A program made the position numbers and the translations under genes. Positions 2,230 through 38,419 of a DNA stretch of 64,000 nt are shown piece after piece. How positions within the stretch are numbered: position 1 is the stretch's first letter; every line of letters begins with the position of its first letter. The stretch is from Escherichia phage vB_EcoM_ESCO25. The notes under the pieces are model-generated. The model saw only the letters and a program-made list of their open reading frames with translations. It did not search any database and was not told the origin of the DNA. The DNA lies in sequence record OM386656.1; one strand, written 5' to 3'.

Positions 2230-2262
2230 TTTTACTTCTCCTCTTGTTTGGTTGATGAGACA

Positions 2263-2291
2263 AGTATAAGTCCCTTCCGCAAAGTTGTCAA
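2263..2291 (-). promoter_or_regulatory. sigma70-like promoter (TTGACA-N17-TATACT) for gene 1798..2229
   Basis: Minus-strand reading: TTGACA (2291-2286), 17-nt spacer, TATACT (2268-2263), then RBS and ATG. Confidence 0.6.
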
Positions 2292-2295
2292 CAGG

Positions 2296-2321
2296 TATTT
2301 TTAATAAAAGGGCCGAAGCCC
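2296..2321 (-). terminator. intrinsic terminator after primase-helicase
   Basis: Minus strand: GGGC-TTCG-GCCC hairpin followed by TTTTATT, directly after the stop at 2322. Confidence 0.55.
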
Positions 2322-4100
2322 TTAGTAGTTGCTATCCGTAGGTAAGTTAGCAGGGTTGTTAAAATACTGCTCTTTGTCGTGAAGAGTTGCAGTTCTAATG
2401 TCATAGTAAAACTGCCCTGCTGGACCAGTCTCCGAGAACTCACGGTTTTTTAGGATAAAGCAATGAGTTGTATTACGTTCTACAGGATCTTCAGCAGCCT
2501 TATCTCGTTCCAAAGCCAAGGTAATACCAGCACCTTTAGCCAAGAAACTACTACCCATTGCATCGTCCTCTGTTAAGTGCTCATTGCCACCATTAGCTGA
2601 CTTCTTAACGTGTGAGATGACGATAATAGTTATAGCATACTCTTTCATGATTCGCTTCAACCATGTTGCTAACTCTTCCTGGGCTTGAACATCCATACCA
2701 GAAAGCAAATCAGAATAAGGGTCGATAACAAGAATTGTTACTCCAAAATAGATGATCATCTCCAAAACTTTTTCTTTGATAGACTCCACATCTGCTCCAC
2801 GATCATCACACACGTAAAAACGTGGTGATCCATCTTCTCTTTCGTAAAAATCTAGGATTTTTTCTTTATTCTCTTCCAAGATTTGAAATTTCTCTTCCGG
2901 TGTTTTCCTGTGTAGAGGAATGTGTAGGAAAGAGGATAACAGGTTACGAGAATACTTTTTATAAGTCGCTTCCAAGGACAGAATACCTAGGGTATGTTCT
3001 GGGTGTGCAACAATAATATGTTTGGTGATCTCGTTCACCATCAAAGTTTTACCGATACTGGTCTTTGCCAGGATGACTGTAATCTCTTCCTCTACTAAAC
3101 CACCACCCAACATGTTTGCAGCAACACGCATAAAAGGAGGCAAGGTAATCATCTTGGATTCCAAGCATTCCAATGCAGCTTCATACAAGACATTAGAAGC
3201 ATAAACACCTGCTGGGGTGTATAGACGAGCACTCCAAAAAGCTTTTACGAAATCTTTTGCACGGCCTTCTTCCAGATACTGATTGGCATCCTTAAGATCC
3301 ATCTGCATACGGTAGACTTTGTTACGAGGCAGCACCTTAACAATATTTTCAAATGCCTCGTTACCTGCTTTGTCGTTATCCATGCAAACAATAATCTTCT
3401 TAAATTTTTCAAAGAAAGGATATTGTGCCTGAACTTGTTTATACATACTGGTTTCACCAGTTGTGCCACTTACTACGGCTGGAAGCTCATATTTACTGTC
3501 CAAGTTTTCAGATAGCATTTGATAAGCTGCCAGAGCATCGTGTTCACCACCTGTAATTACAACAGTATGAGAACGATCTGCAAAACGAATTTGTCCAAAA
3601 AGATCTACATCTTTACCTACTTGACCAATAGGTTTACTGAAATCTTTAGGATGAATACGACGCTTAAAACCAACCAATTCTTTACCGATGGTAGTTGGAT
3701 ATAAACAACTTTCTACTACCATCTGATCCCCTTCCTGACGGTATTCATAACGAACACCATAGAAAGATGAAACTTTTTCTTTAATGCCTCGATAACCACG
3801 TGGGTTGGTTGATGTTTCTTGAACAATTTTACGATGAATCTGTTTATTAAATTCCGAACCCACAATCTCCTCCTCTTCTTCTAAAACTTCACCATTTTCT
3901 CGTAACCATTCTACGCTAGGAATAGTGTATTCACACGCAAAGCACTTAGCACCTTTATGCTCTCCATTAGAATCTAATCCATAAACCATCAGGTTATTAC
4001 GAGAGCGATCCTTGCCATTTTTCATGCAGCGCGGACAACCTGTATGTCCTTCCTTGCTAAGATCAACATCAAATCCATATTTAGTTATAATGTGCGACAC
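2322..4100 (-). CDS. bifunctional DNA primase-helicase (T7 gp4-like)
   Basis: 592 aa; N-terminal zinc ribbon CPRC...CFAC; TOPRIM-like VVITGGEHDALAAY and CMDNDKAGNEA; C-terminal helicase Walker A AKTSIGKT and Walker B-like VLVIDPYSD. Confidence 0.85.
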   Translation of the reverse strand: MSHIITKYGFDVDLSKEGHTGCPRCMKNGKDRSRNNLMVYGLDSNGEHKGAKCFACEYTIPSVEWLRENGEVLEEEEEIVGSEFNKQIHRKIVQETSTNPRGYRGIKEKVSSFYGVRYEYRQEGDQMVVESCLYPTTIGKELVGFKRRIHPKDFSKPIGQVGKDVDLFGQIRFADRSHTVVITGGEHDALAAYQMLSENLDSKYELPAVVSGTTGETSMYKQVQAQYPFFEKFKKIIVCMDNDKAGNEAFENIVKVLPRNKVYRMQMDLKDANQYLEEGRAKDFVKAFWSARLYTPAGVYASNVLYEAALECLESKMITLPPFMRVAANMLGGGLVEEEITVILAKTSIGKTLMVNEITKHIIVAHPEHTLGILSLEATYKKYSRNLLSSFLHIPLHRKTPEEKFQILEENKEKILDFYEREDGSPRFYVCDDRGADVESIKEKVLEMIIYFGVTILVIDPYSDLLSGMDVQAQEELATWLKRIMKEYAITIIVISHVKKSANGGNEHLTEDDAMGSSFLAKGAGITLALERDKAAEDPVERNTTHCFILKNREFSETGPAGQFYYDIRTATLHDKEQYFNNPANLPTDSNY

Positions 4101-30819: not shown

Positions 30820-30849
30820 TTGTTTTCTCCTCTTGTTTTGTATGAGTTG

Positions 30850-30877
30850 ATCTTAACAGGACTAAAAAGCATGTCAA
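30850..30877 (-). promoter_or_regulatory. sigma70-like promoter (TTGACA-N16-TAAGAT) driving the minus-strand block
   Basis: Minus strand: TTGACA (30877-30872), TAAGAT (30855-30850). Confidence 0.5.
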
Positions 30878-30880
30878 TAC

Positions 30881-30908
30881 TTGATCTGAAATTATTTTCA
30901 GGTATCAT
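30881..30908 (+). promoter_or_regulatory. candidate divergent promoter (TTGATC-N16-TATCAT) for the plus-strand block
   Basis: TTGATC at 30881-86, TATCAT around 30903-08; gene 30934 follows with RBS agagagg. Confidence 0.4.
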
Positions 30909-30933
30909 ATATGAACATTAACAAGAGAGGTAG

Positions 30934-31227
30934 ATGATGAACATTACTTTAGCAACTAAGAATATTTCTGAGACAATTAACGGTTTTGGTGTCATTGTAG
31001 CCTTACACGGTAACAACGAGAAATGGTTGGCTTCTTTTGAAGAGGATCGTCAGCACAACATTATTTTAGATGCTCCTATAAAAGTTATGCATATCGTTGG
31101 TGAAAGCAAAGTGCTCACTTCCTCCCGTTCAAAAGAACAAATTACAAATGAATTAGTAAAACTGCTTGACAATGTTCTTAACATGTTTGATAATGCACCC
31201 ATCGATACAAAACGTGTCTTAATGTGA
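30934..31227 (+). CDS. hypothetical protein
   Basis: 97 aa ORF. Confidence 0.5.
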   Translation: MMNITLATKNISETINGFGVIVALHGNNEKWLASFEEDRQHNIILDAPIKVMHIVGESKVLTSSRSKEQITNELVKLLDNVLNMFDNAPIDTKRVLM

Positions 31228-32846: not shown

Positions 32847-33011
32847 ATGATTTTAAACTTCATCATCAACTTGTGTTTGACATTGGGGTTACTCTGTGCA
32901 ATAGTATCCCCTTTGGTTGGTGAATATTGTTCTGAACTGGCGATGTTTATAGTTCTTGGTGCGGCTATTGCTAATATGTTTGTCGCTGCGATTTGTATGT
33001 TGTGGGAATAG
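32847..33011 (+). CDS. small hydrophobic membrane peptide (54 aa), not on ORF track
   Basis: Manual translation MILNFIINLCLTLGLLCAIVSPLVGEYCSELAMFIVLGAAIANMFVAAICMLWE; RBS aaggagag. Confidence 0.45.
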   Translation: MILNFIINLCLTLGLLCAIVSPLVGEYCSELAMFIVLGAAIANMFVAAICMLWE

Positions 33012-33022
33012 GAGGGAAGTTT

Positions 33023-33379
33023 ATGAAAAAACTAATCTTAGCCACATTGCTGGCTACCGTAAGCTTCACCACTTACGCTCAAAAATTTGTAGCAGTTAAA
33101 ACAGATATTGGTAAAGATGTTGTGATCACAGGCAACAAGTTTTACTATACACCTGGGAATGGTGTTCTAGAAGAGTGTAAAGATGTTGAGGCATATACGG
33201 GAAAAGAAGATAACACGGAACGTCCTTTTTATTCGATTATAGCTACTTGCAAAAATGAAATAGTAGCTATTAAACAATACAAAGATGCCCCTGGAGGAGA
33301 ATACTTATTAGTCAAGAATATTAAGAGTGAAAAAACTGCAAAGTTTACAGTAATTATTTTAAAAGGAGAAACGTTCTAA
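33023..33379 (+). CDS. secreted or periplasmic protein (signal peptide)
   Basis: MKKLILATLLATVSFTTYAQ signal peptide; RBS ggaggga. Confidence 0.55.
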   Translation: MKKLILATLLATVSFTTYAQKFVAVKTDIGKDVVITGNKFYYTPGNGVLEECKDVEAYTGKEDNTERPFYSIIATCKNEIVAIKQYKDAPGGEYLLVKNIKSEKTAKFTVIILKGETF

Positions 33380-34518
33380 TGAAATACACTATTTTTGGAG
33401 ATGTAGCTGTTGTAAATAAGGAATATGGCGTTGAAGCTAATAAACTTCCTGCTGGAGTTTGGGTTGTCAACTGCGATCCGCACGGTAACTACTCTTTAGT
33501 GCGTGGTGAAAGTTTCTCTCTTCCGAACACTCTTTATGGGGAAACTAAAGATCGCGCCGCACATGTTATTAAAACATTTGCTCGTCGTAGTAAAGAAGGT
33601 AAAAATACTGGGGTGTTACTGACAGGGACAAAAGGCAGTGGTAAGACGATGTTAGCTAAACTAATTAGCATGTCTCTAATGTCCACAGAAGGTTTAGGTA
33701 TTCCAACCATTTTGGTTACACAGCCTTACACAGATGCTGGCTTCTTAGAATTTATGAGTAAAATTACAGATCGGGCTGTTGTTTTATTTGACGAATTTGA
33801 TAAAGTGTACGCTAAGAAAGAAGATCAGGAAGCACTGTTGACCTTGTTGGATGGAACAGGAAGTGGGAATAAACTTTACATCCTCACTAAAAATAGTGGT
33901 TATATCTCGGAATATTTTGTAAACCGTCCTAGTCGTATCTACTACAGTTTCAATTACGATAAACTGTCTAGTGAAACTATGTTAGATTACTTGGATAAGA
34001 ACTTGGTAAATAAAAAGCACGTAGATAACTTCCAACGTTTATGGGATGTTAGCACAGAGTTGTCTTTCGATGTTATTCAAGGCATTGTAGAAGAATTGAA
34101 TTTCTATCCAAAAATGACTTTTAAAGAATGTCTTGAAATGATGGGTATTTCTTTAGGGAACGATGCTAAATGGAATGTGGCTTCTATCGTAGCTAATGGC
34201 AAAACCTTGAAGGTGAATTGGATCAATAACTGGCACGACTTCACCCCTACTAAGTTTTTGTCGGGTGCTTGTTCCCTGAACATCTATCTACAAAGTTTGA
34301 AAGATGATGAAGTGGAAGCAATGGAAACCAACAGTTATGTTATCCTGGATGAAGATGGTGATCCACATATTGATCTATGTGCAACGGCTGATGGTCTAAC
34401 TTGTGATCTGATTGAAGGTGGTAAGATTCTGGTTATGAGCACTACACCAGGAAACACTTTGCGAGTGGTGCTGGAGCCTGTAACACAACGTTCCACTACA
34501 CTTGGTAGCGTGTTCTAA
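33379..34518 (+). CDS. AAA+ ATPase
   Basis: 379 aa; Walker A LLTGTKGSGKTMLAK, Walker B VVLFDEFDK. Confidence 0.7.
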   Translation: MKYTIFGDVAVVNKEYGVEANKLPAGVWVVNCDPHGNYSLVRGESFSLPNTLYGETKDRAAHVIKTFARRSKEGKNTGVLLTGTKGSGKTMLAKLISMSLMSTEGLGIPTILVTQPYTDAGFLEFMSKITDRAVVLFDEFDKVYAKKEDQEALLTLLDGTGSGNKLYILTKNSGYISEYFVNRPSRIYYSFNYDKLSSETMLDYLDKNLVNKKHVDNFQRLWDVSTELSFDVIQGIVEELNFYPKMTFKECLEMMGISLGNDAKWNVASIVANGKTLKVNWINNWHDFTPTKFLSGACSLNIYLQSLKDDEVEAMETNSYVILDEDGDPHIDLCATADGLTCDLIEGGKILVMSTTPGNTLRVVLEPVTQRSTTLGSVF

Positions 34519-34523
34519 TAAAG

Positions 34524-34546
34524 ATGCCCCGCAAGGGGCATTTGTT
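34524..34546 (+). terminator. intrinsic terminator after the AAA ATPase gene
   Basis: ATGCCCC-gcaa-GGGGCAT hairpin followed by TTGTTAT. Confidence 0.55.
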
Positions 34547-34606
34547 ATGGAGGGATTTTAGTTATTCTTTTGTTGTAGGCTCGCACTAATAGCTAAAGGG
34601 GGAGGT

Positions 34607-36067
34607 GTGCCAAAAATAGTCACTTGGGAACAATATAAAACAGATATAAAACAAGCTTATCAAGGTAAGTCTTGGACTGTTGTAGATTATATTGAGCCGT
34701 GGAACGGCAATAAAACTAAACTTAGATGCATCTGTGCTCTGCATGGAGAATGGAAAACAACAAGCATAAATACCGCTAAACTAGGGAGGGGTTGTCCAGA
34801 ATGCGGTAGGGAGATTATAAGTAAAGCAGTATCTATAAACAAATCAAAAACCTGGGAGCAATATAAAGAAGAAGTGCAAACCACTTACAATCAGGCAGGT
34901 AAGTTTTGGACTGTTACAGGATGGCACGGAGAATGGAAAGGATGGAATACTAAACTGGTTTGTTGTTGTGCTTTACATGGGGAGTGGAGGTCTACTTCTA
35001 TATCTTCTGCGAAAAACGGGAGTGGATGCAGGAAGTGTATGGGAGAAGCAAACAGAGAAAGAACATCGATTGCATGGGAGAAACATAAAGAAGAAGTAGA
35101 AGAAGCTTATAAAGAAAAACCCTGGATTGTTAGAGGCTATGTGGAACCGTGGAACGGTTCCCGCACTAAGTTGATTTGTGAGTGTAAGGTTCATGGTCAA
35201 TGGTGCACTACCACTGTAAACAGTGCTAAACAAGGGACTGGATGCTACAGTTGTCAAAGAGAAATGACGAAACAAAGGAATACAATGGAGGATAAACAAC
35301 ATGTTGAAGATTTTATAAAAGCTTGTCCTGATAATGTAGAGCGTAAATATTATCGTAGCGATAGAGTAGATAGATTAGGTCGTCAGGTTTACTGGATTGT
35401 AGAATGTCCTATATGTGCAGAGGATGATTATTGTAAAGAAGGCTTATGCGATAATAAATTTGAGATGAAGATGAGTCATTTGAAAAGGGGTGGCCTTCCT
35501 TGCCGTTGTTCTAAATATTATCATTACACTCCTGAACAATGGGCCTACCGTATGACCAAAGCTTGCCAGGAACGAGGGGATCAATTTATAGGATTCATTG
35601 ATAAGGTAAGCAATAACAGCAAGTTTAAATATCTATGTAGGGAGCATGGAGAGCAAACGATCACACCTACCGATTATCTCAATGGGAAAGGTTGTCCAGG
35701 CTGTAAGAACAGAAATATGCAAGAATTTTACATCAATATTATTCTTGATGAGTACGGAGAAGACACGGGAGCTTACAAGTTGGGGATTGCAAAGGACAGT
35801 GATATCAGGATCAAAGGGCAGAATGCAAACAACAATTACTCTATGCGCCGTATAGCATTGTTCGATCTGCCGTCCTACCAAGCTTGCAGGGCGTTAGAGA
35901 GTAAGCTAAAGTCTAAGACTGATCAGATTCTACCGTCTATTGGCTGTGTAGAACGCTTGCACATGAAAGATGGTCATAGTGAAACCTTCCTGCGCGAGGA
36001 TTTGGCTATCGTCTTAAGTGCTATCAACCAAGCAGGTGGAATAATGAGAGAGGAGGAAACATGTTAG
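34607..36067 (+). CDS. Cys-rich tandem-repeat protein with C-terminal GIY-YIG/T5orf172-like region
   Basis: 486 aa; three ~70-aa repeats (W-E-Q-Y-K ... TKL-C-C-ALHGEW ... AK-G-GC-x-C) plus a fourth degenerate Cys module; C-terminal EFYINIIL...AYKLGIAKD...RRIALFDL resembles a GIY-YIG-like motif. GTG start. Confidence 0.5.
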   Translation: MPKIVTWEQYKTDIKQAYQGKSWTVVDYIEPWNGNKTKLRCICALHGEWKTTSINTAKLGRGCPECGREIISKAVSINKSKTWEQYKEEVQTTYNQAGKFWTVTGWHGEWKGWNTKLVCCCALHGEWRSTSISSAKNGSGCRKCMGEANRERTSIAWEKHKEEVEEAYKEKPWIVRGYVEPWNGSRTKLICECKVHGQWCTTTVNSAKQGTGCYSCQREMTKQRNTMEDKQHVEDFIKACPDNVERKYYRSDRVDRLGRQVYWIVECPICAEDDYCKEGLCDNKFEMKMSHLKRGGLPCRCSKYYHYTPEQWAYRMTKACQERGDQFIGFIDKVSNNSKFKYLCREHGEQTITPTDYLNGKGCPGCKNRNMQEFYINIILDEYGEDTGAYKLGIAKDSDIRIKGQNANNNYSMRRIALFDLPSYQACRALESKLKSKTDQILPSIGCVERLHMKDGHSETFLREDLAIVLSAINQAGGIMREEETC

Positions 36068-36426
36068 TTGACGTTCAAATTATGCGCAACGAAAGAATGG
36101 ACTTCTTTGAAGCAGTAGAGAAACATCTGATCAGATGGGACTATGAATTTGTTCCTGCTGGATGTGGACCAGTAGAGCATTTAGCGGAAGACGACGATGT
36201 ATACATGATCATTCGTCAAGTGTACCAGACAGACCAGTGTGAAGAAACTCCCGAACTGATTTTGTTTGAGTGTAAAGATCTTGCAAAATATTTTGACTAT
36301 GGCGGAAAAGAGGGTCATAATCTCTCCAGATACAATAAACGTCTACTTATCTTAGACTACATGCGGAACAACAAACACAAACTCATCGACGCAGACGCAG
36401 TTTATGGCTACTGGTGGATGGACTAA
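36061..36426 (+). CDS. hypothetical protein
   Basis: 121 aa ORF. Confidence 0.5.
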   Translation: MLVDVQIMRNERMDFFEAVEKHLIRWDYEFVPAGCGPVEHLAEDDDVYMIIRQVYQTDQCEETPELILFECKDLAKYFDYGGKEGHNLSRYNKRLLILDYMRNNKHKLIDADAVYGYWWMD

Positions 36427-36439
36427 CAAAGGAGAAACT

Positions 36440-36619
36440 ATGGCACGTTTAGCAGATCATGAAATCTTTAAACCTATTCTGAACCACTATGATGAACTTA
36501 AAGCAGTGTTGGATTGTTATAGAGAGGATGAAGAACGTTTGGAAGTCAATCTTAAGATAGTTCTGATGAAAGCTTTTCAAGACGGGCAAGCTAAAGTTTT
36601 AGAAGGCATGAAAAAATGA
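36440..36619 (+). CDS. hypothetical small protein
   Basis: Start trimmed to MARLADH with RBS aaaggagaa. Confidence 0.45.
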   Translation: MARLADHEIFKPILNHYDELKAVLDCYREDEERLEVNLKIVLMKAFQDGQAKVLEGMKK

Positions 36620-37158
36620 GAATAACTGATGAATATGTATTCTTCTTTTCACATAAAGATGTGTTTAGTAATTGGTATATTGCACCCTTTACAGAAACTG
36701 AACCAGGTTACAATGAGACTTTCTGTTGTGTTGAGCAATATATGATGTGGCGTAAGGCTTTGCTGTTCAAGGATCATGCGATTGCAGCAGCTATCCTTGA
36801 TCACTCAACTATACGTGACAACGAGAGGAAACAAGCATACTACAAACGTATGGGTCGAGCGGTATCTGGTTTTAATAATGATATGTGGGAAGAGAACCGT
36901 GAGCGTATTGTTATGCGAGGCTTATGCTTGAAATATGTACAGAATCCAGATTTGTATGCAGACTTACACCTTTACCAATACAAAACGTTTGTTGAAGCAA
37001 GTCCTTACGATAAGGTTTACGGTATTGGAATGGGAATGTATGAACCAGGGGTGCTAAACCCTGCTACCTGGAAAGGGCAGAATCTTTTAGGAAAATATCA
37101 TAATAAACTGATCGAAATACTTTTCCCAGACAAAATACCGCAAAGACGATATTTGTGA
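36616..37158 (+). CDS. NADAR (YbiA-like) domain protein
   Basis: 180 aa; FFFSHKDVFSNWY, CVEQYMMWRKALLF, RERIVMRGLCLKYVQNPDL and VEASPYDKVYGIGMG match the NADAR/DUF1768 signature. Confidence 0.7.
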   Translation: MRITDEYVFFFSHKDVFSNWYIAPFTETEPGYNETFCCVEQYMMWRKALLFKDHAIAAAILDHSTIRDNERKQAYYKRMGRAVSGFNNDMWEENRERIVMRGLCLKYVQNPDLYADLHLYQYKTFVEASPYDKVYGIGMGMYEPGVLNPATWKGQNLLGKYHNKLIEILFPDKIPQRRYL

Positions 37159-37213
37159 TATTTTAACTTTTTTCATTTTTAGAACAAAGGTGTCACTTTG
37201 TAGCACAGAAATA

Positions 37214-37249
37214 AGGCTCCTACAGCACCGTAGAGAGCCTGTTATTTTG
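37214..37249 (+). terminator. intrinsic terminator after the NADAR gene
   Basis: Nested hairpin AGGCTC-[CTAC-agcacc-GTAG]-a-GAGCCT followed by GTTATTTTG. Confidence 0.55.
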
Positions 37250-37400
37250 TCCTATACAAACCCTTGTCTTTTTCAGTTTGCATCACTAGGATTCGATCTG
37301 AGTGGGTTCCTGAAGGTTTACCAATAAGATTAAAGGTTATATCAAATTCCCACTATCTTTTATCTCAAAAATCCCTCAAATTATTTAAACTTTTTAAGAA

Positions 37401-37578
37401 TTTACAAAAGTGAAAGTTGAAAACCAAAATTTAAAGTTTAGGAAAATTATCTTAAAATATTAGATACAAAACAAAACTCAAAAGTCAAGGAAAATTTTAA
37501 AAATTTTGCGCGCCCACAGTATTTAAAGTTTTTTTGCTTTTACAAAAATGAAAGTACAAAAGCAAAATTTAAAGTTTA
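37401..37578. repeat. two ~40-bp AT-rich direct repeats (37401-37440 and 37539-37578)
   Basis: TTTACAAAAGTGAAAGTTGAAAACCAAAATTTAAAGTTTA versus TTTACAAAAATGAAAGTACAAAAGCAAAATTTAAAGTTTA, about 34/40 identical. Confidence 0.6.
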
Positions 37579-37600
37579 CAAAAATTTTTATGCAGGTGAA

Positions 37601-37707
37601 AATGAGAAGAGTTCTCATATGGAAATGCAAATGATAATGATTCGCATTTAAGTTTATAAATGAGATTGATTCTTATTTAATAAGGTAAATGACAATCATT
37701 CTCATTT
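37601..37707. promoter_or_regulatory. array of four ~20-bp AT-rich palindromes at ~29-bp spacing (operator or Fur-box-like)
   Basis: AATGAGAAgagTTCTCAT (37601), AATGATAATGATTCGCATT (37629, contains GATAATGAT), AATGAGATTGATTCTTATT (37658), AATGACAATCATTCTCATT (37687). Confidence 0.45.
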
Positions 37708-37966
37708 AGAGAATGACGCGCAGGGGCGGTGTTTGTCTCGCGCTCCCGTGTCCCCTCGCCATGTAATAAGAATAACAGATCCAGCCAGGAAAGCAAGCGA
37801 TTATTTTATCTTTACATTTCTTTACAAATATATAGCACCCAGCCTACCGGCGATCAACCTTCCAACCAGTGCCCCCTGGTATGTTAGCCCCGCCTTTACG
37901 CCGTGGGGTGGCGCTTCCTCTTCTGTATGTAAAACAGTATAAGCCCGATCCCTGGGCTTGTCAAGA

Positions 37967-38233
37967 TTATTTTTTGTTTTCTTGCCAGGATAGGACACCT
38001 AACCAAAAATACATATCGCCCCGCGCCCCTGGTGGTATCTTGCTTTCCCCGCCGCCACTGCAAGCCCATAGATAACCATTTGCGAACGTATCAAAATGAT
38101 CTATCTCTTCCACCTTATGATCGCCCAGGTTGAGAACGGTTTCAACCTTTAAGCCCGTTGCGCTTGCTACCTGGTGCACCGTGCCGCCTTGCCAGCCCAA
38201 TGAGTGCATAAGGTGTAATGTAGTATTTGTCAT
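37967..38233 (-). CDS. possible hypothetical protein in an otherwise non-coding GC-rich island
   Basis: 88 aa ORF with weak RBS (aaggg); no recognisable promoter; low confidence. Confidence 0.3.
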   Translation of the reverse strand: MTNTTLHLMHSLGWQGGTVHQVASATGLKVETVLNLGDHKVEEIDHFDTFANGYLWACSGGGESKIPPGARGDMYFWLGVLSWQENKK

Positions 38234-38419
38234 GATATCGCCCTTTCTTTGTTGTGCGCCCTGGTTGGCGCGGTAGAAAGATAATAGCCCTTTTCTTTAT
38301 ATATAGCAAGCAAAAAGAAAATAAAAAAGATTGAAAAATGGTTGACGTTAACCAGGCGGCGGCGTAGTATTCATCTTGTAGGGCGGCAATGGTGCCGCTC
38401 ACTATTTGGAGTTAAGATC

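What the first reader, a model, noticed from the sequence alone, without database searches (positions are those of the whole stretch)
33379..36067. AAA+ ATPase followed by a Cys-rich tandem-repeat protein with a GIY-YIG-like C-terminus: candidate two-gene system
The AAA+ ATPase (Walker A GTKGSGKT, Walker B VVLFDEFDK) is followed, after a terminator hairpin, by a 486-aa protein built from three nearly identical ~70-aa Cys-containing repeats plus a fourth degenerate module and a C-terminal region resembling GIY-YIG/T5orf172 nuclease-like domains. ATPase plus nuclease-like effector pairs are a common architecture for conflict systems (defence, exclusion or homing). The DNA-level triplication (about 34620-35290) is itself unusual.
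Basis: partly seen in the sequence, partly recalled or inferred. Interest (0 to 1): 0.55.

Follow-up and report, generated by a model that had tools for sequence, protein, structure and literature searches.

The report
Homing-type nuclease beside unrelated phage ATPase
The Cys-rich repeat protein is a phage homing-type endonuclease of an already described family (zinc-finger DNA-binding modules plus a GIY-YIG/T5orf172 nuclease domain), and the evidence indicates it is a swappable cassette inserted next to a widespread phage AAA+ ATPase that does not depend on it, so this is an ordinary selfish gene and not a new two-gene system.

Summary

The repeats are 43-50% identical in protein and 62-65% in DNA, not "nearly identical".

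The two-gene idea fails on several counts:
- The ~1.5-kb cassette (34549-36050) sits exactly between the ATPase's terminator hairpin and the next gene's ribosome-binding site.
- phiWec188 has the ATPase and an empty site.
- Phage ukendt has a 378/379-identical ATPase but a nuclease only 35% identical.
- Slot alleles can be closer across genera than within a genus.
- ATPase homologues in four distant phages lack a nuclease neighbour.
- Nuclease homologues sit in unrelated contexts.
- The nuclease has no PADLOC hit; the ATPase has only weak generic P-loop matches.

The ATPase is a generic classical AAA+ protein of unknown role. Verdict: a new member of a known kind, of low interest. The near-universal occupancy of the slot by very divergent alleles is the only mildly notable point.

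The parts
33379..34518 (+). AAA+ ATPase gene (379 aa). It is a neighbour of the cassette, not part of it. It belongs to a widespread phage family (phrog_2376) and has a classical-clade AAA+ fold with small N- and C-terminal beta-rich domains.
34524..34547 (+). Terminator-like hairpin ATGCCCCGCAAGGGGCAT plus a T-rich tail. It belongs to the ATPase gene and forms the left border of the insertion. It is conserved in the empty-site genome.
   Evidence: Homology with ukendt ends at 34548 and with phiWec188 at 34543.
34549..36050 (+). Allele-specific (mobile) cassette DNA of about 1.5 kb. It is absent from phiWec188 and replaced by unrelated-looking DNA of a different length in other Phapecoctavirus genomes.
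34607..36067 (+). CapR-T5orf172 endonuclease ORF (486 aa, GTG start). The stop codon TAG (36065-36067) overlaps the ATG of the next gene.
   Evidence: phrog_681 'endonuclease', 8.8e-84; RefSeq annotates it as 'endonuclease'.
34619..34840 (+). Zinc module M1 (residues 5-78; C43-x2-H46 ... C63-x2-C66).
34847..35068 (+). Zinc module M2 (residues 81-154; C121-x2-H124 ... C141-x2-C144).
35069..35284 (+). Zinc module M3 (residues 155-226; C193-x2-H196 ... C213-x2-C216). This is the first module shared by all slot alleles.
35285..35524 (+). Zinc module M4 (residues 227-306; C267-x2-C270 ... C299-x-C301). It has the canonical published CapR ligand pattern, and these cysteines are invariant in the family alignment.
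   Evidence: (best CapR stretch 257-302); PMC8096241.
35525..35713 (+). Zinc module M5 (residues 307-369; C344-x2-H347 ... C363-x2-C366).
35714..36064 (+). GIY-YIG/T5orf172-type nuclease domain (residues 370-486). Conserved positions are Y375-I-N, K391-x-G393, R401, Q405, E431 and D455-G-x-x-E459-T.
36052..36059 (+). Ribosome-binding site GGAGGAAA of the downstream 121-aa gene. It forms the right border of the insertion, and the endonuclease ORF reads through it (encoding ...EEETC*).
36061..36426 (+). Downstream 121-aa gene (phrog_24465, function unknown). In the empty-site phage it directly follows the ATPase.

Best explanation
ORF 34607-36067 is a free-standing homing-type endonuclease gene of the CapR-T5orf172 family. 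It is inserted as a self-contained ~1.5-kb cassette into the short spacer between a conserved phage AAA+ ATPase gene and the next gene.

Inferred mechanism:
1. The five zinc modules act as 'beads on a string' and together read a long DNA target.
2. The C-terminal GIY-YIG-type domain uses the conserved Arg401 and Glu459 to cut nearby DNA in a co-infecting relative that lacks this allele.
3. Recombinational repair from the nuclease-carrying genome then copies the cassette and its flanking markers into the cut genome (homing, or marker exclusion).

The ATPase is simply the conserved neighbour. It may contain or adjoin the target site, but it is not a functional partner.

Shown here: domain identities, the nuclease fold, conserved catalytic-type residues, precise insertion borders, an empty site, allele replacement, and incongruence with the flanks.

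Inferred, not shown: DNA binding, cleavage, the target site, and actual homing.
For: (1) Domains. Pfam CapR scores 99.3 bits in 5 stretches, and phrog_681 'endonuclease' matches the full length.

(2) Nuclease domain.
- The AF2 model has pLDDT 90.5 and pTM 0.83 with a beta-beta-alpha-beta-alpha core.
- BFVD hits include 'Homing endonuclease', 'GIY-YIG domain-containing', 'T5 Orf172 DNA-binding domain-containing' and 'MUG113' proteins at E of 1e-4 to 1e-7.
- Pfam T5orf172 is matched by 7 of 22 family members. The PD06 allele scores 22.1 bits, above the gathering score of 20, and the window domain scores 13.7 bits over profile positions 3-86 of 101.
- K391, G393, R401, E431, D455, G456, E459 and T460 are invariant among 25 sequences.

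(3) Homology. tblastn gives 2e-23 over residues 175-479 to ICP1 Gp165, which is named as a CapR-domain T5orf172 putative homing endonuclease in PMC8096241. The multi-module architecture is described in PMC10448857. A T5orf172 domain (Odn) cleaves DNA in a manner dependent on the conserved Glu (PMC8263062).

(4) Mobility signatures.
- phiWec188 has an empty site.
- The insertion borders fall at the terminator and the ribosome-binding site.
- At least 5 size and sequence classes occupy the same slot among 70 Phapecoctavirus records.
- The window and ukendt ATPases are 378/379 identical, but their nucleases are 35% identical. The ukendt nuclease is 46-49% identical to Justusliebigvirus alleles.
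- PD06 nuclease DNA is about 77% identical to the phAPEC8 and nepoznato alleles, while the flanking genes do not match at that level.

(5) Relatives sit in other classic HEG positions, for example between the ssDNA-binding protein gene and frd in a T4-like Krischvirus.
Against: - No cleavage or homing assay exists for this protein or any slot allele.
- The window protein on its own does not reach Pfam's T5orf172 threshold (E = 0.09 for the isolated domain, and no hit on the full-length protein).
- Only two empty-site records (phiWec188 and phiWec190) were seen among about 140 records in two genera. Classical theory predicts decay of a homing gene after fixation, yet the ORFs are intact. That fits ongoing selection, through competition between alleles or a benefit to the phage.
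- The family is single-copy in the one genome checked completely (PaulScherrer), so there is no sign of intragenomic spread in this lineage.
- No sigma-70-like promoter was found in front of the gene.
Confidence: 0.75

Rival explanations
1. Domesticated nuclease. The slot gene is kept by selection because it benefits the phage, and self-propagation is secondary. It could exclude co-infecting related phages, act against a satellite as ICP1 Odn does, or double as a transcriptional regulator as I-TevI and CapR do.
For: - The slot is occupied in nearly all Phapecoctavirus and all listed Justusliebigvirus records, with intact ORFs.
- Alleles diverge extremely and vary in module number between near-identical genomes, which suggests diversifying selection.
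- The gene is single-copy per genome in the one genome checked.
Against: - There is no RepA_N or other satellite-derived targeting domain; only CapR-type modules are present.
- Catalytic-type residues are conserved, so it is not a pure repressor.
- Two phages do without it.
- Marker exclusion is itself what free-standing homing endonucleases do, so this rival overlaps the best explanation more than it replaces it.
Confidence: 0.15
2. First reader's model. The AAA+ ATPase and the nuclease form one two-gene conflict system, with an ATPase sensor or motor and a nuclease effector.
For: - The two genes are adjacent and on the same strand in two genera, in about 120 or more records.
- ATPase plus nuclease is a common defence architecture (general knowledge).
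- There is a weak PADLOC mad8 hit at 4.4e-5.
Against: - phiWec188 keeps the ATPase without the nuclease.
- There is no co-variation: the ATPase is 378/379 identical while the nuclease is 35% identical.
- A terminator hairpin belonging to the ATPase gene lies between the two genes and is present in the empty site too.
- The ATPase family has 735 or more homologues (394 phage records) in very diverse phages. All four distant examples inspected lack a nuclease neighbour.
- In all four distant nuclease-family contexts inspected, no gene annotated as an ATPase lies within the stretch shown (2-3.5 kb on each side).
- The nuclease has no PADLOC hit.
Confidence: 0.05
3. Decaying relic. The gene is an inactive remnant of a homing endonuclease that happens to remain an open reading frame.
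For: - The Pfam T5orf172 score is sub-threshold for this allele.
- Homing genes are expected to degenerate after fixation (general theory).
Against: - The 486-aa ORF is intact and 96-100% conserved in DNA across the 22 records that carry this allele.
- All zinc ligands and the Arg and Glu positions are conserved.
- The nuclease domain model is confident and compact.
Confidence: 0.05

Closest known systems
ICP1 Gp165 and Gp174 family (CapR-domain T5orf172 putative homing endonucleases of Vibrio phage ICP1; PMC8096241, PMC10448857)
   Same: Direct sequence homology over zinc modules M3-M5 plus the nuclease domain (2e-23, 28% identity). Same order of parts: N-terminal repeated CapR zinc modules followed by a C-terminal T5orf172 domain. 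Same genomic behaviour: the locus is variable, and the gene sits at a boundary of sequence similarity between related phages.
   Different: Different phage lineage (Stephanstirmvirinae coliphages). Five zinc modules. The nuclease domain is more divergent from the Pfam T5orf172 model. It lives in a single fixed slot that is almost always occupied by one of several very divergent alleles.
PLE CapR (satellite-encoded repressor of the ICP1 capsid operon)
   Same: Shares the CapR zinc-finger DNA-binding module that gives the Pfam family its name (PMC8096241).
   Different: CapR corresponds to the DNA-binding domain of these endonucleases and acts as a repressor. The window protein retains a nuclease domain with conserved catalytic-type residues.
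ICP1 Odn (Gp88), an origin-directed T5orf172 nuclease (PMC8263062)
   Same: Same nuclease domain class. It provides the experimental evidence that a T5orf172 domain cuts DNA using the conserved Glu.
   Different: Odn targets DNA through a RepA_N domain captured from a satellite. The window protein has only CapR-type zinc modules and no RepA_N.
T4 GIY-YIG homing endonucleases (I-TevI; free-standing Seg proteins)
   Different: Domain order is reversed: I-TevI has an N-terminal nuclease and a C-terminal DNA-binding region. The DNA-binding modules are different (CapR zinc modules as opposed to a zinc finger plus helix-turn-helix). The domain belongs to the T5orf172 subfamily, which has K-x-G in place of Y-I-G.
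SLX1 structure-specific endonuclease (GIY-YIG/URI domain)
   Different: Only 10-12% sequence identity. SLX1 is a eukaryotic repair nuclease with a RING/PHD partner domain and an SLX4 partner. The resemblance is one of fold, not of family membership.

Membership tests
T5orf172 / GIY-YIG superfamily nuclease domain | Match to Pfam PF10544 (T5orf172) or PF13455 (MUG113) above the curated threshold | tested here: inconclusive
   The window domain alone scores 13.7 bits (E = 0.094) against a cutoff of 20, but it aligns over profile positions 3-86 of 101. The full-length protein gives no hit. Among homologues, PD06 scores 22.1 bits (passes), ICP1 Gp165 18.0, and ukendt 16.6 plus MUG113 17.7. Seven of 22 family members match at E <= 0.05.
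T5orf172 / GIY-YIG superfamily nuclease domain | GIY-YIG fold (three-stranded sheet with a beta-beta-alpha-beta-alpha core) | tested here: met
T5orf172 / GIY-YIG superfamily nuclease domain | Conserved catalytic Arg and Glu, plus the first-strand Tyr | tested here: met
   R401, E431 and E459 are invariant among 22 family sequences, and Y375 is nearly invariant. R401 and E459 remain invariant among 25 sequences. The assignment of E459 as the catalytic Glu (matching Odn E180 and the I-TevI Glu) rests on its motif position (...DG-x-[ST]-E-T) and was not checked by structural superposition.
T5orf172 / GIY-YIG superfamily nuclease domain | Metal-dependent DNA cleavage | not testable with these tools
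   This needs purified protein and an E459A control.
CapR-type zinc-finger DNA-binding domain (PF21817) | Pfam match above threshold | tested here: met
   99.3 bits against a cutoff of 24.2, in 5 stretches. All 22 family members match.
CapR-type zinc-finger DNA-binding domain (PF21817) | Paired Cys/His zinc ligands (published CxxC...CxC motif) | tested here: met
   M4 has C267-x2-C270 ... C299-x-C301, all invariant. M1-M3 and M5 have CxxH...CxxC. The motif is described in PMC8096241.
CapR-type zinc-finger DNA-binding domain (PF21817) | Sequence-specific DNA binding | not testable with these tools
   This needs EMSA or footprinting.
Free-standing homing endonuclease gene | Presence/absence polymorphism at one locus in otherwise syntenic genomes | tested here: met
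   In phiWec188 the ATPase is followed after 45 nt by the 121-aa gene. phiWec190 gives the same match pattern.
Free-standing homing endonuclease gene | Discrete insertion that leaves the neighbouring genes intact | tested here: met
   The borders are at 34543-34548 (after the terminator) and 36051-36052 (at the ribosome-binding site). The same borders hold for two different alleles.
Free-standing homing endonuclease gene | Evolutionary history incongruent with the flanking genes (horizontal movement) | tested here: met
   Identity matrices. There is about 77% nucleotide identity between nuclease alleles of different genera where the flanks do not match.
Free-standing homing endonuclease gene | Cleavage of the nuclease-less allele and biased inheritance in crosses | not testable with these tools
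   This needs in vitro cleavage assays and co-infection crosses.
ATPase + nuclease two-gene defence or conflict system | The two genes co-occur wherever either family is found | tested here: not met
   The ATPase occurs without the nuclease in phiWec188, GAP32, Bcp1, EF24C and Aeromonas 4_4572. The nuclease occurs with no annotated ATPase within the stretch shown in ICP1, FENT2, CBB and Delraymugoa.
ATPase + nuclease two-gene defence or conflict system | Match to a known defence-system model | tested here: not met
   In PADLOC the nuclease has no hit, and the ATPase has only weak generic P-loop hits (best mad8, 4.4e-5).
ATPase + nuclease two-gene defence or conflict system | Co-variation of the partners | tested here: not met
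   The ATPase is 378/379 identical while the nuclease is 35% identical (window against ukendt).

The most novel reading that the evidence does not exclude
The spacer after the ATPase terminator is a long-lived 'nuclease arena' of the Stephanstirmvirinae. Under this reading, intact CapR-T5orf172 nucleases with one to three extra zinc modules are kept by diversifying selection as weapons for inter-phage competition (marker exclusion) or against satellites. Each allele would cut genomes carrying rival alleles, so near-universal occupancy by 35-50%-identical alleles reflects an ongoing arms race and not a fixed selfish gene. A weaker version is that the target lies in the ATPase gene, so that the nuclease drives the sharp drop in similarity seen at this point between phiWec188 and the window.
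Probability: 0.2. Interest if true: 0.45.

Novelty: new member of a known kind. Interest (0 to 1): 0.2.

Why it matters
It matters little beyond correct annotation. Many GenBank records for these therapeutic-candidate coliphages label the gene 'hypothetical protein', and Pfam's T5orf172 model misses this allele. Showing that it is a CapR-T5orf172 homing-type nuclease prevents it from being misread as a defence system.

The slot is a clean natural example of the published idea that nuclease genes mark boundaries of genetic exchange between phages. It has one empty site, at least five divergent alleles, and variable zinc-module number. That makes it usable as a test bed for how zinc-module arrays set target specificity. 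It does not open a new question.

Tried and rejected
- Tandem Repeats Finder on 33000-37000 found no ~225-nt array. The 'DNA-level triplication' is too diverged to count as a tandem repeat.
- NCBIfam and PADLOC gave nothing for the nuclease.
- Sequence searches of the PDB, with the whole protein and with a C-terminal-domain profile, found nothing meaningful. The fold had to be tested by structure prediction.
- A profile search of the 5.8-billion-protein set with the C-terminal domain added only 9 proteins. One of them is named a GIY-YIG nuclease family protein by NCBI.
- The afdb50 fold library was unavailable.
- I first read 'places_in_record = 2-3' as several paralogues per genome. After fetching the whole PaulScherrer genome and running tblastn, all 'places' turned out to be register-shifted matches of the repeat modules inside the one slot gene. 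I dropped that argument.
- No sigma-70-like promoter lies upstream of the nuclease gene.
- Rfam and tRNA scans of the ORF-free region downstream were negative.
Full report
**Where we are.** Window 33000-37200 is 100% identical to Phapecoctavirus DIJ07P1 and 99.8-99.9% identical to ESCO13, nieznany, Schickermooser and others. These are phAPEC8-like E. coli myoviruses of the subfamily Stephanstirmvirinae. RefSeq already annotates the two genes as 'ATPase' and 'endonuclease'.

**Checking the observation.**
- Both ORFs are present at the stated coordinates.
- The ATPase (33379-34518, 379 aa) has the quoted Walker A and B motifs. It matches Pfam AAA above threshold and phrog_2376 over its full length.
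- A hairpin ATGCCCCGCAAGGGGCAT followed by TTTGTT lies at 34524-34547.
- The second ORF (34607-36067, 486 aa) has 28 cysteines.
- The repeats are real, but the description overstates them. M1, M2 and M3 share 43-50% amino-acid identity (z = 24-30 against shuffled sequences) and 62-65% DNA identity. TRF sees no array, and the repeat finder sees only short stretches at 66-76% identity.
- Pfam CapR (PF21817) matches five stretches at 1.4e-28, so there are five zinc modules. M1-M3 and M5 have CxxH...CxxC ligands. M4 has CxxC...CxC, which is the motif published for CapR (PMC8096241).

**What the second protein is.**
- phrog_681 'endonuclease' matches the whole length at 8.8e-84.
- tblastn against 50,697 phage records finds relatives in 419 records. 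These include Vibrio phage ICP1 'putative homing endonuclease' at 2e-23 over residues 175-479.
- That ICP1 gene is Gp165. Netter et al. 2021 (PMC8096241) name it among the CapR-homology T5orf172 putative homing endonucleases.
- Barth et al. 2023 (PMC10448857) describe exactly this architecture. It consists of repeated CapR, DUF723 or DUF4397 zinc modules arranged as 'beads on a string' plus a T5orf172 domain, with recombination between the repeats changing module number.

**Is the C-terminus really a nuclease domain?** Pfam does not call T5orf172 on the full-length window protein.
- The isolated domain scores 13.7 bits (E = 0.094) but aligns over profile positions 3-86 of 101. Homologues reach or approach the threshold: PD06 22.1 bits against a gathering score of 20, Gp165 18.0, and ukendt 16.6 plus MUG113 17.7. 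Seven of 22 aligned family members match T5orf172 at E <= 0.05.
- PDB sequence searches were empty.
- An AF2 model of residues 362-486, built from a 25-sequence alignment, is confident (pLDDT 90.5, pTM 0.83) with a beta-beta-alpha-beta-alpha core.
- Foldseek against BFVD returns phage CapR-domain proteins first. It then returns proteins named 'Homing endonuclease', 'GIY-YIG domain-containing', 'Bacteriophage T5 Orf172 DNA-binding domain-containing', 'Meiotically up-regulated gene 113' and Bro-N fusions, at E of 1e-4 to 1e-7.
- Y375-I-N, K391-x-G393, R401, Q405, E431 and D455-G-x-x-E459-T are invariant or nearly so.
- For the T5orf172 nuclease Odn, DNA cleavage depends on the conserved Glu (PMC8263062).
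- I therefore accept the domain as a divergent T5orf172/GIY-YIG nuclease domain with catalytic-type residues intact.

**Is it a two-gene system with the ATPase?** Six lines of evidence say no.
1. *Empty site.* In phiWec188 the ATPase (80% identical) is followed after 45 nt by the 121-aa gene, with no nuclease. phiWec190 shows the same match pattern.
2. *Borders.* The empty site reads: ATPase stop, hairpin, about 9 nt, ribosome-binding site GGAGGAAA, ATG. In the window and in phage ukendt, the insert lies exactly between the hairpin and that ribosome-binding site. Homology ends at 34543-34548 and resumes at 36051-36052. The nuclease ORF reads through the ribosome-binding site (...EEETC*), and its stop overlaps the next ATG. 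The hairpin therefore belongs to the ATPase gene, not to a shared operon design. Justusliebigvirus genomes show the same layout with a different terminator.
3. *Allele replacement without co-variation.* Among 70 Phapecoctavirus records, 22 carry the window allele. The others carry at least four other length classes in the same slot. The window and ukendt ATPases are 378/379 identical, while their nucleases are 35% identical. The ukendt allele is closer (46-49%) to alleles of the other genus. PD06 nuclease DNA is about 77% identical to the phAPEC8 and nepoznato alleles, although the flanks do not match at that level.
4. *Independent distribution of the ATPase.* The ATPase family has at least 735 homologues in the protein collection (394 phage records), in jumbo phages, Herelleviridae, Aeromonas phages and others. 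In GAP32, Bcp1, EF24C and Aeromonas 4_4572 it has no nuclease neighbour.
5. *Independent distribution of the nuclease.* Nuclease relatives sit among small ORFs in ICP1, near structural and endonuclease VII genes in FENT2, near a sigma factor in CBB, and between the ssDNA-binding protein gene and frd in a T4-like Krischvirus.
6. *No defence-system match.* PADLOC has no hit for the nuclease and only weak generic P-loop hits for the ATPase.

**A correction to my own reasoning.** I initially took 'places_in_record = 2-3' as evidence for several paralogues per genome. After fetching the complete PaulScherrer genome and running tblastn, all 'places' turned out to be register-shifted alignments of the repeat modules within the single slot gene. 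So in this lineage the family is single-copy and confined to this slot. The slot is occupied in nearly all records of two genera. This is the one feature that goes beyond a textbook homing gene. Intact, highly divergent alleles at a nearly fixed site suggest continuing selection, through competition between alleles, marker exclusion, or a benefit to the phage. I keep that as the main rival and as the novel reading.

**Mechanism (inferred).** The zinc-module array binds an extended target, and the GIY-YIG-type domain cuts nearby DNA in a co-infecting genome that lacks this allele. Repair from the nuclease-carrying genome then co-converts the cassette and its flanks. This is consistent with the sharp change in similarity at the slot between the window and phiWec188: 74% nucleotide identity across the ATPase on the left, against 84-91% on the right. 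Barth et al. generalised this pattern as 'nuclease genes occupy boundaries of genetic exchange' (PMC10448857). The target site, the cleavage chemistry and actual homing remain untested.

**Verdict.** The domain inference is correct. The two-gene interpretation is not supported. The gene is a new, divergent member of the known CapR-T5orf172 homing-endonuclease family, and interest is low.

Noticed in passing
window 37160-38340: About 1.2 kb with no convincing ORF. It is AT-rich, and it is more conserved between genera (85% against Justusliebigvirus, 90% against phiWec188) than the neighbouring coding DNA (70-75%). It contains four palindromic ~23-nt units (AAATGAGAnnnnTTCTCATTT-like) spaced 29 nt apart at 37600-37708. 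It also has a 72-nt direct repeat 138 nt apart (37377-37448 and 37515-37586) and 12 sigma-70-like sites against 3.2 expected. There is no Rfam or tRNA hit. The 'inny' record annotates a repeat_region in the equivalent place. It is a candidate replication origin or regulatory hub.
   Followed up: partly
window 36616-37158 (+): A NADAR/YbiA-like gene (Pfam NADAR, 3.4e-35) lies two genes downstream of the nuclease. Several GenBank records label it 'GTP cyclohydrolase II', which looks like a carried-over misannotation. In Justusliebigvirus it directly follows the nuclease slot.
   Followed up: partly
L004 (GAP32), L013 (EF24C), L014 (Aeromonas 4_4572): In three very distant phages the homologous AAA+ ATPase gene lies next to tRNA genes: tRNA-Ser and tRNA-Trp, a cluster of five tRNAs, and tRNA-Met. 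This may be coincidence, or it may be a hint about the ATPase's unknown role. No tRNA is found in this window.
   Followed up: no
protein P0002 (669 aa, metagenomic contig of 22 kb): A relative of the window nuclease is a head-to-tail fusion of two complete units, each with zinc modules plus a nuclease domain, in one ORF. The two nuclease domains are divergent from each other.
   Followed up: no
L012 (Escherichia phage Delraymugoa, Krischvirus) 2246-3874: A 542-aa member of the same family sits between the ssDNA-binding protein gene (gp32 equivalent) and frd. From memory, T4-like phages carry other free-standing homing endonucleases in this kind of position.
   Followed up: no
window ~30820-30934: This is a divergent transcription point. 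Genes to the left are on the minus strand and genes to the right are on the plus strand, and the GC skew changes sign at about 30 kb. The ATPase and nuclease therefore lie about 2.5-4 kb into a rightward block of small genes.
   Followed up: no
L015 41715-45029 and L017 18293-21067 (PaulScherrer): The related Justusliebigvirus carries inteins in its DNA polymerase and its UvrD/Rep helicase. These are further selfish elements in this phage lineage, seen only in the record's annotation.
   Followed up: no
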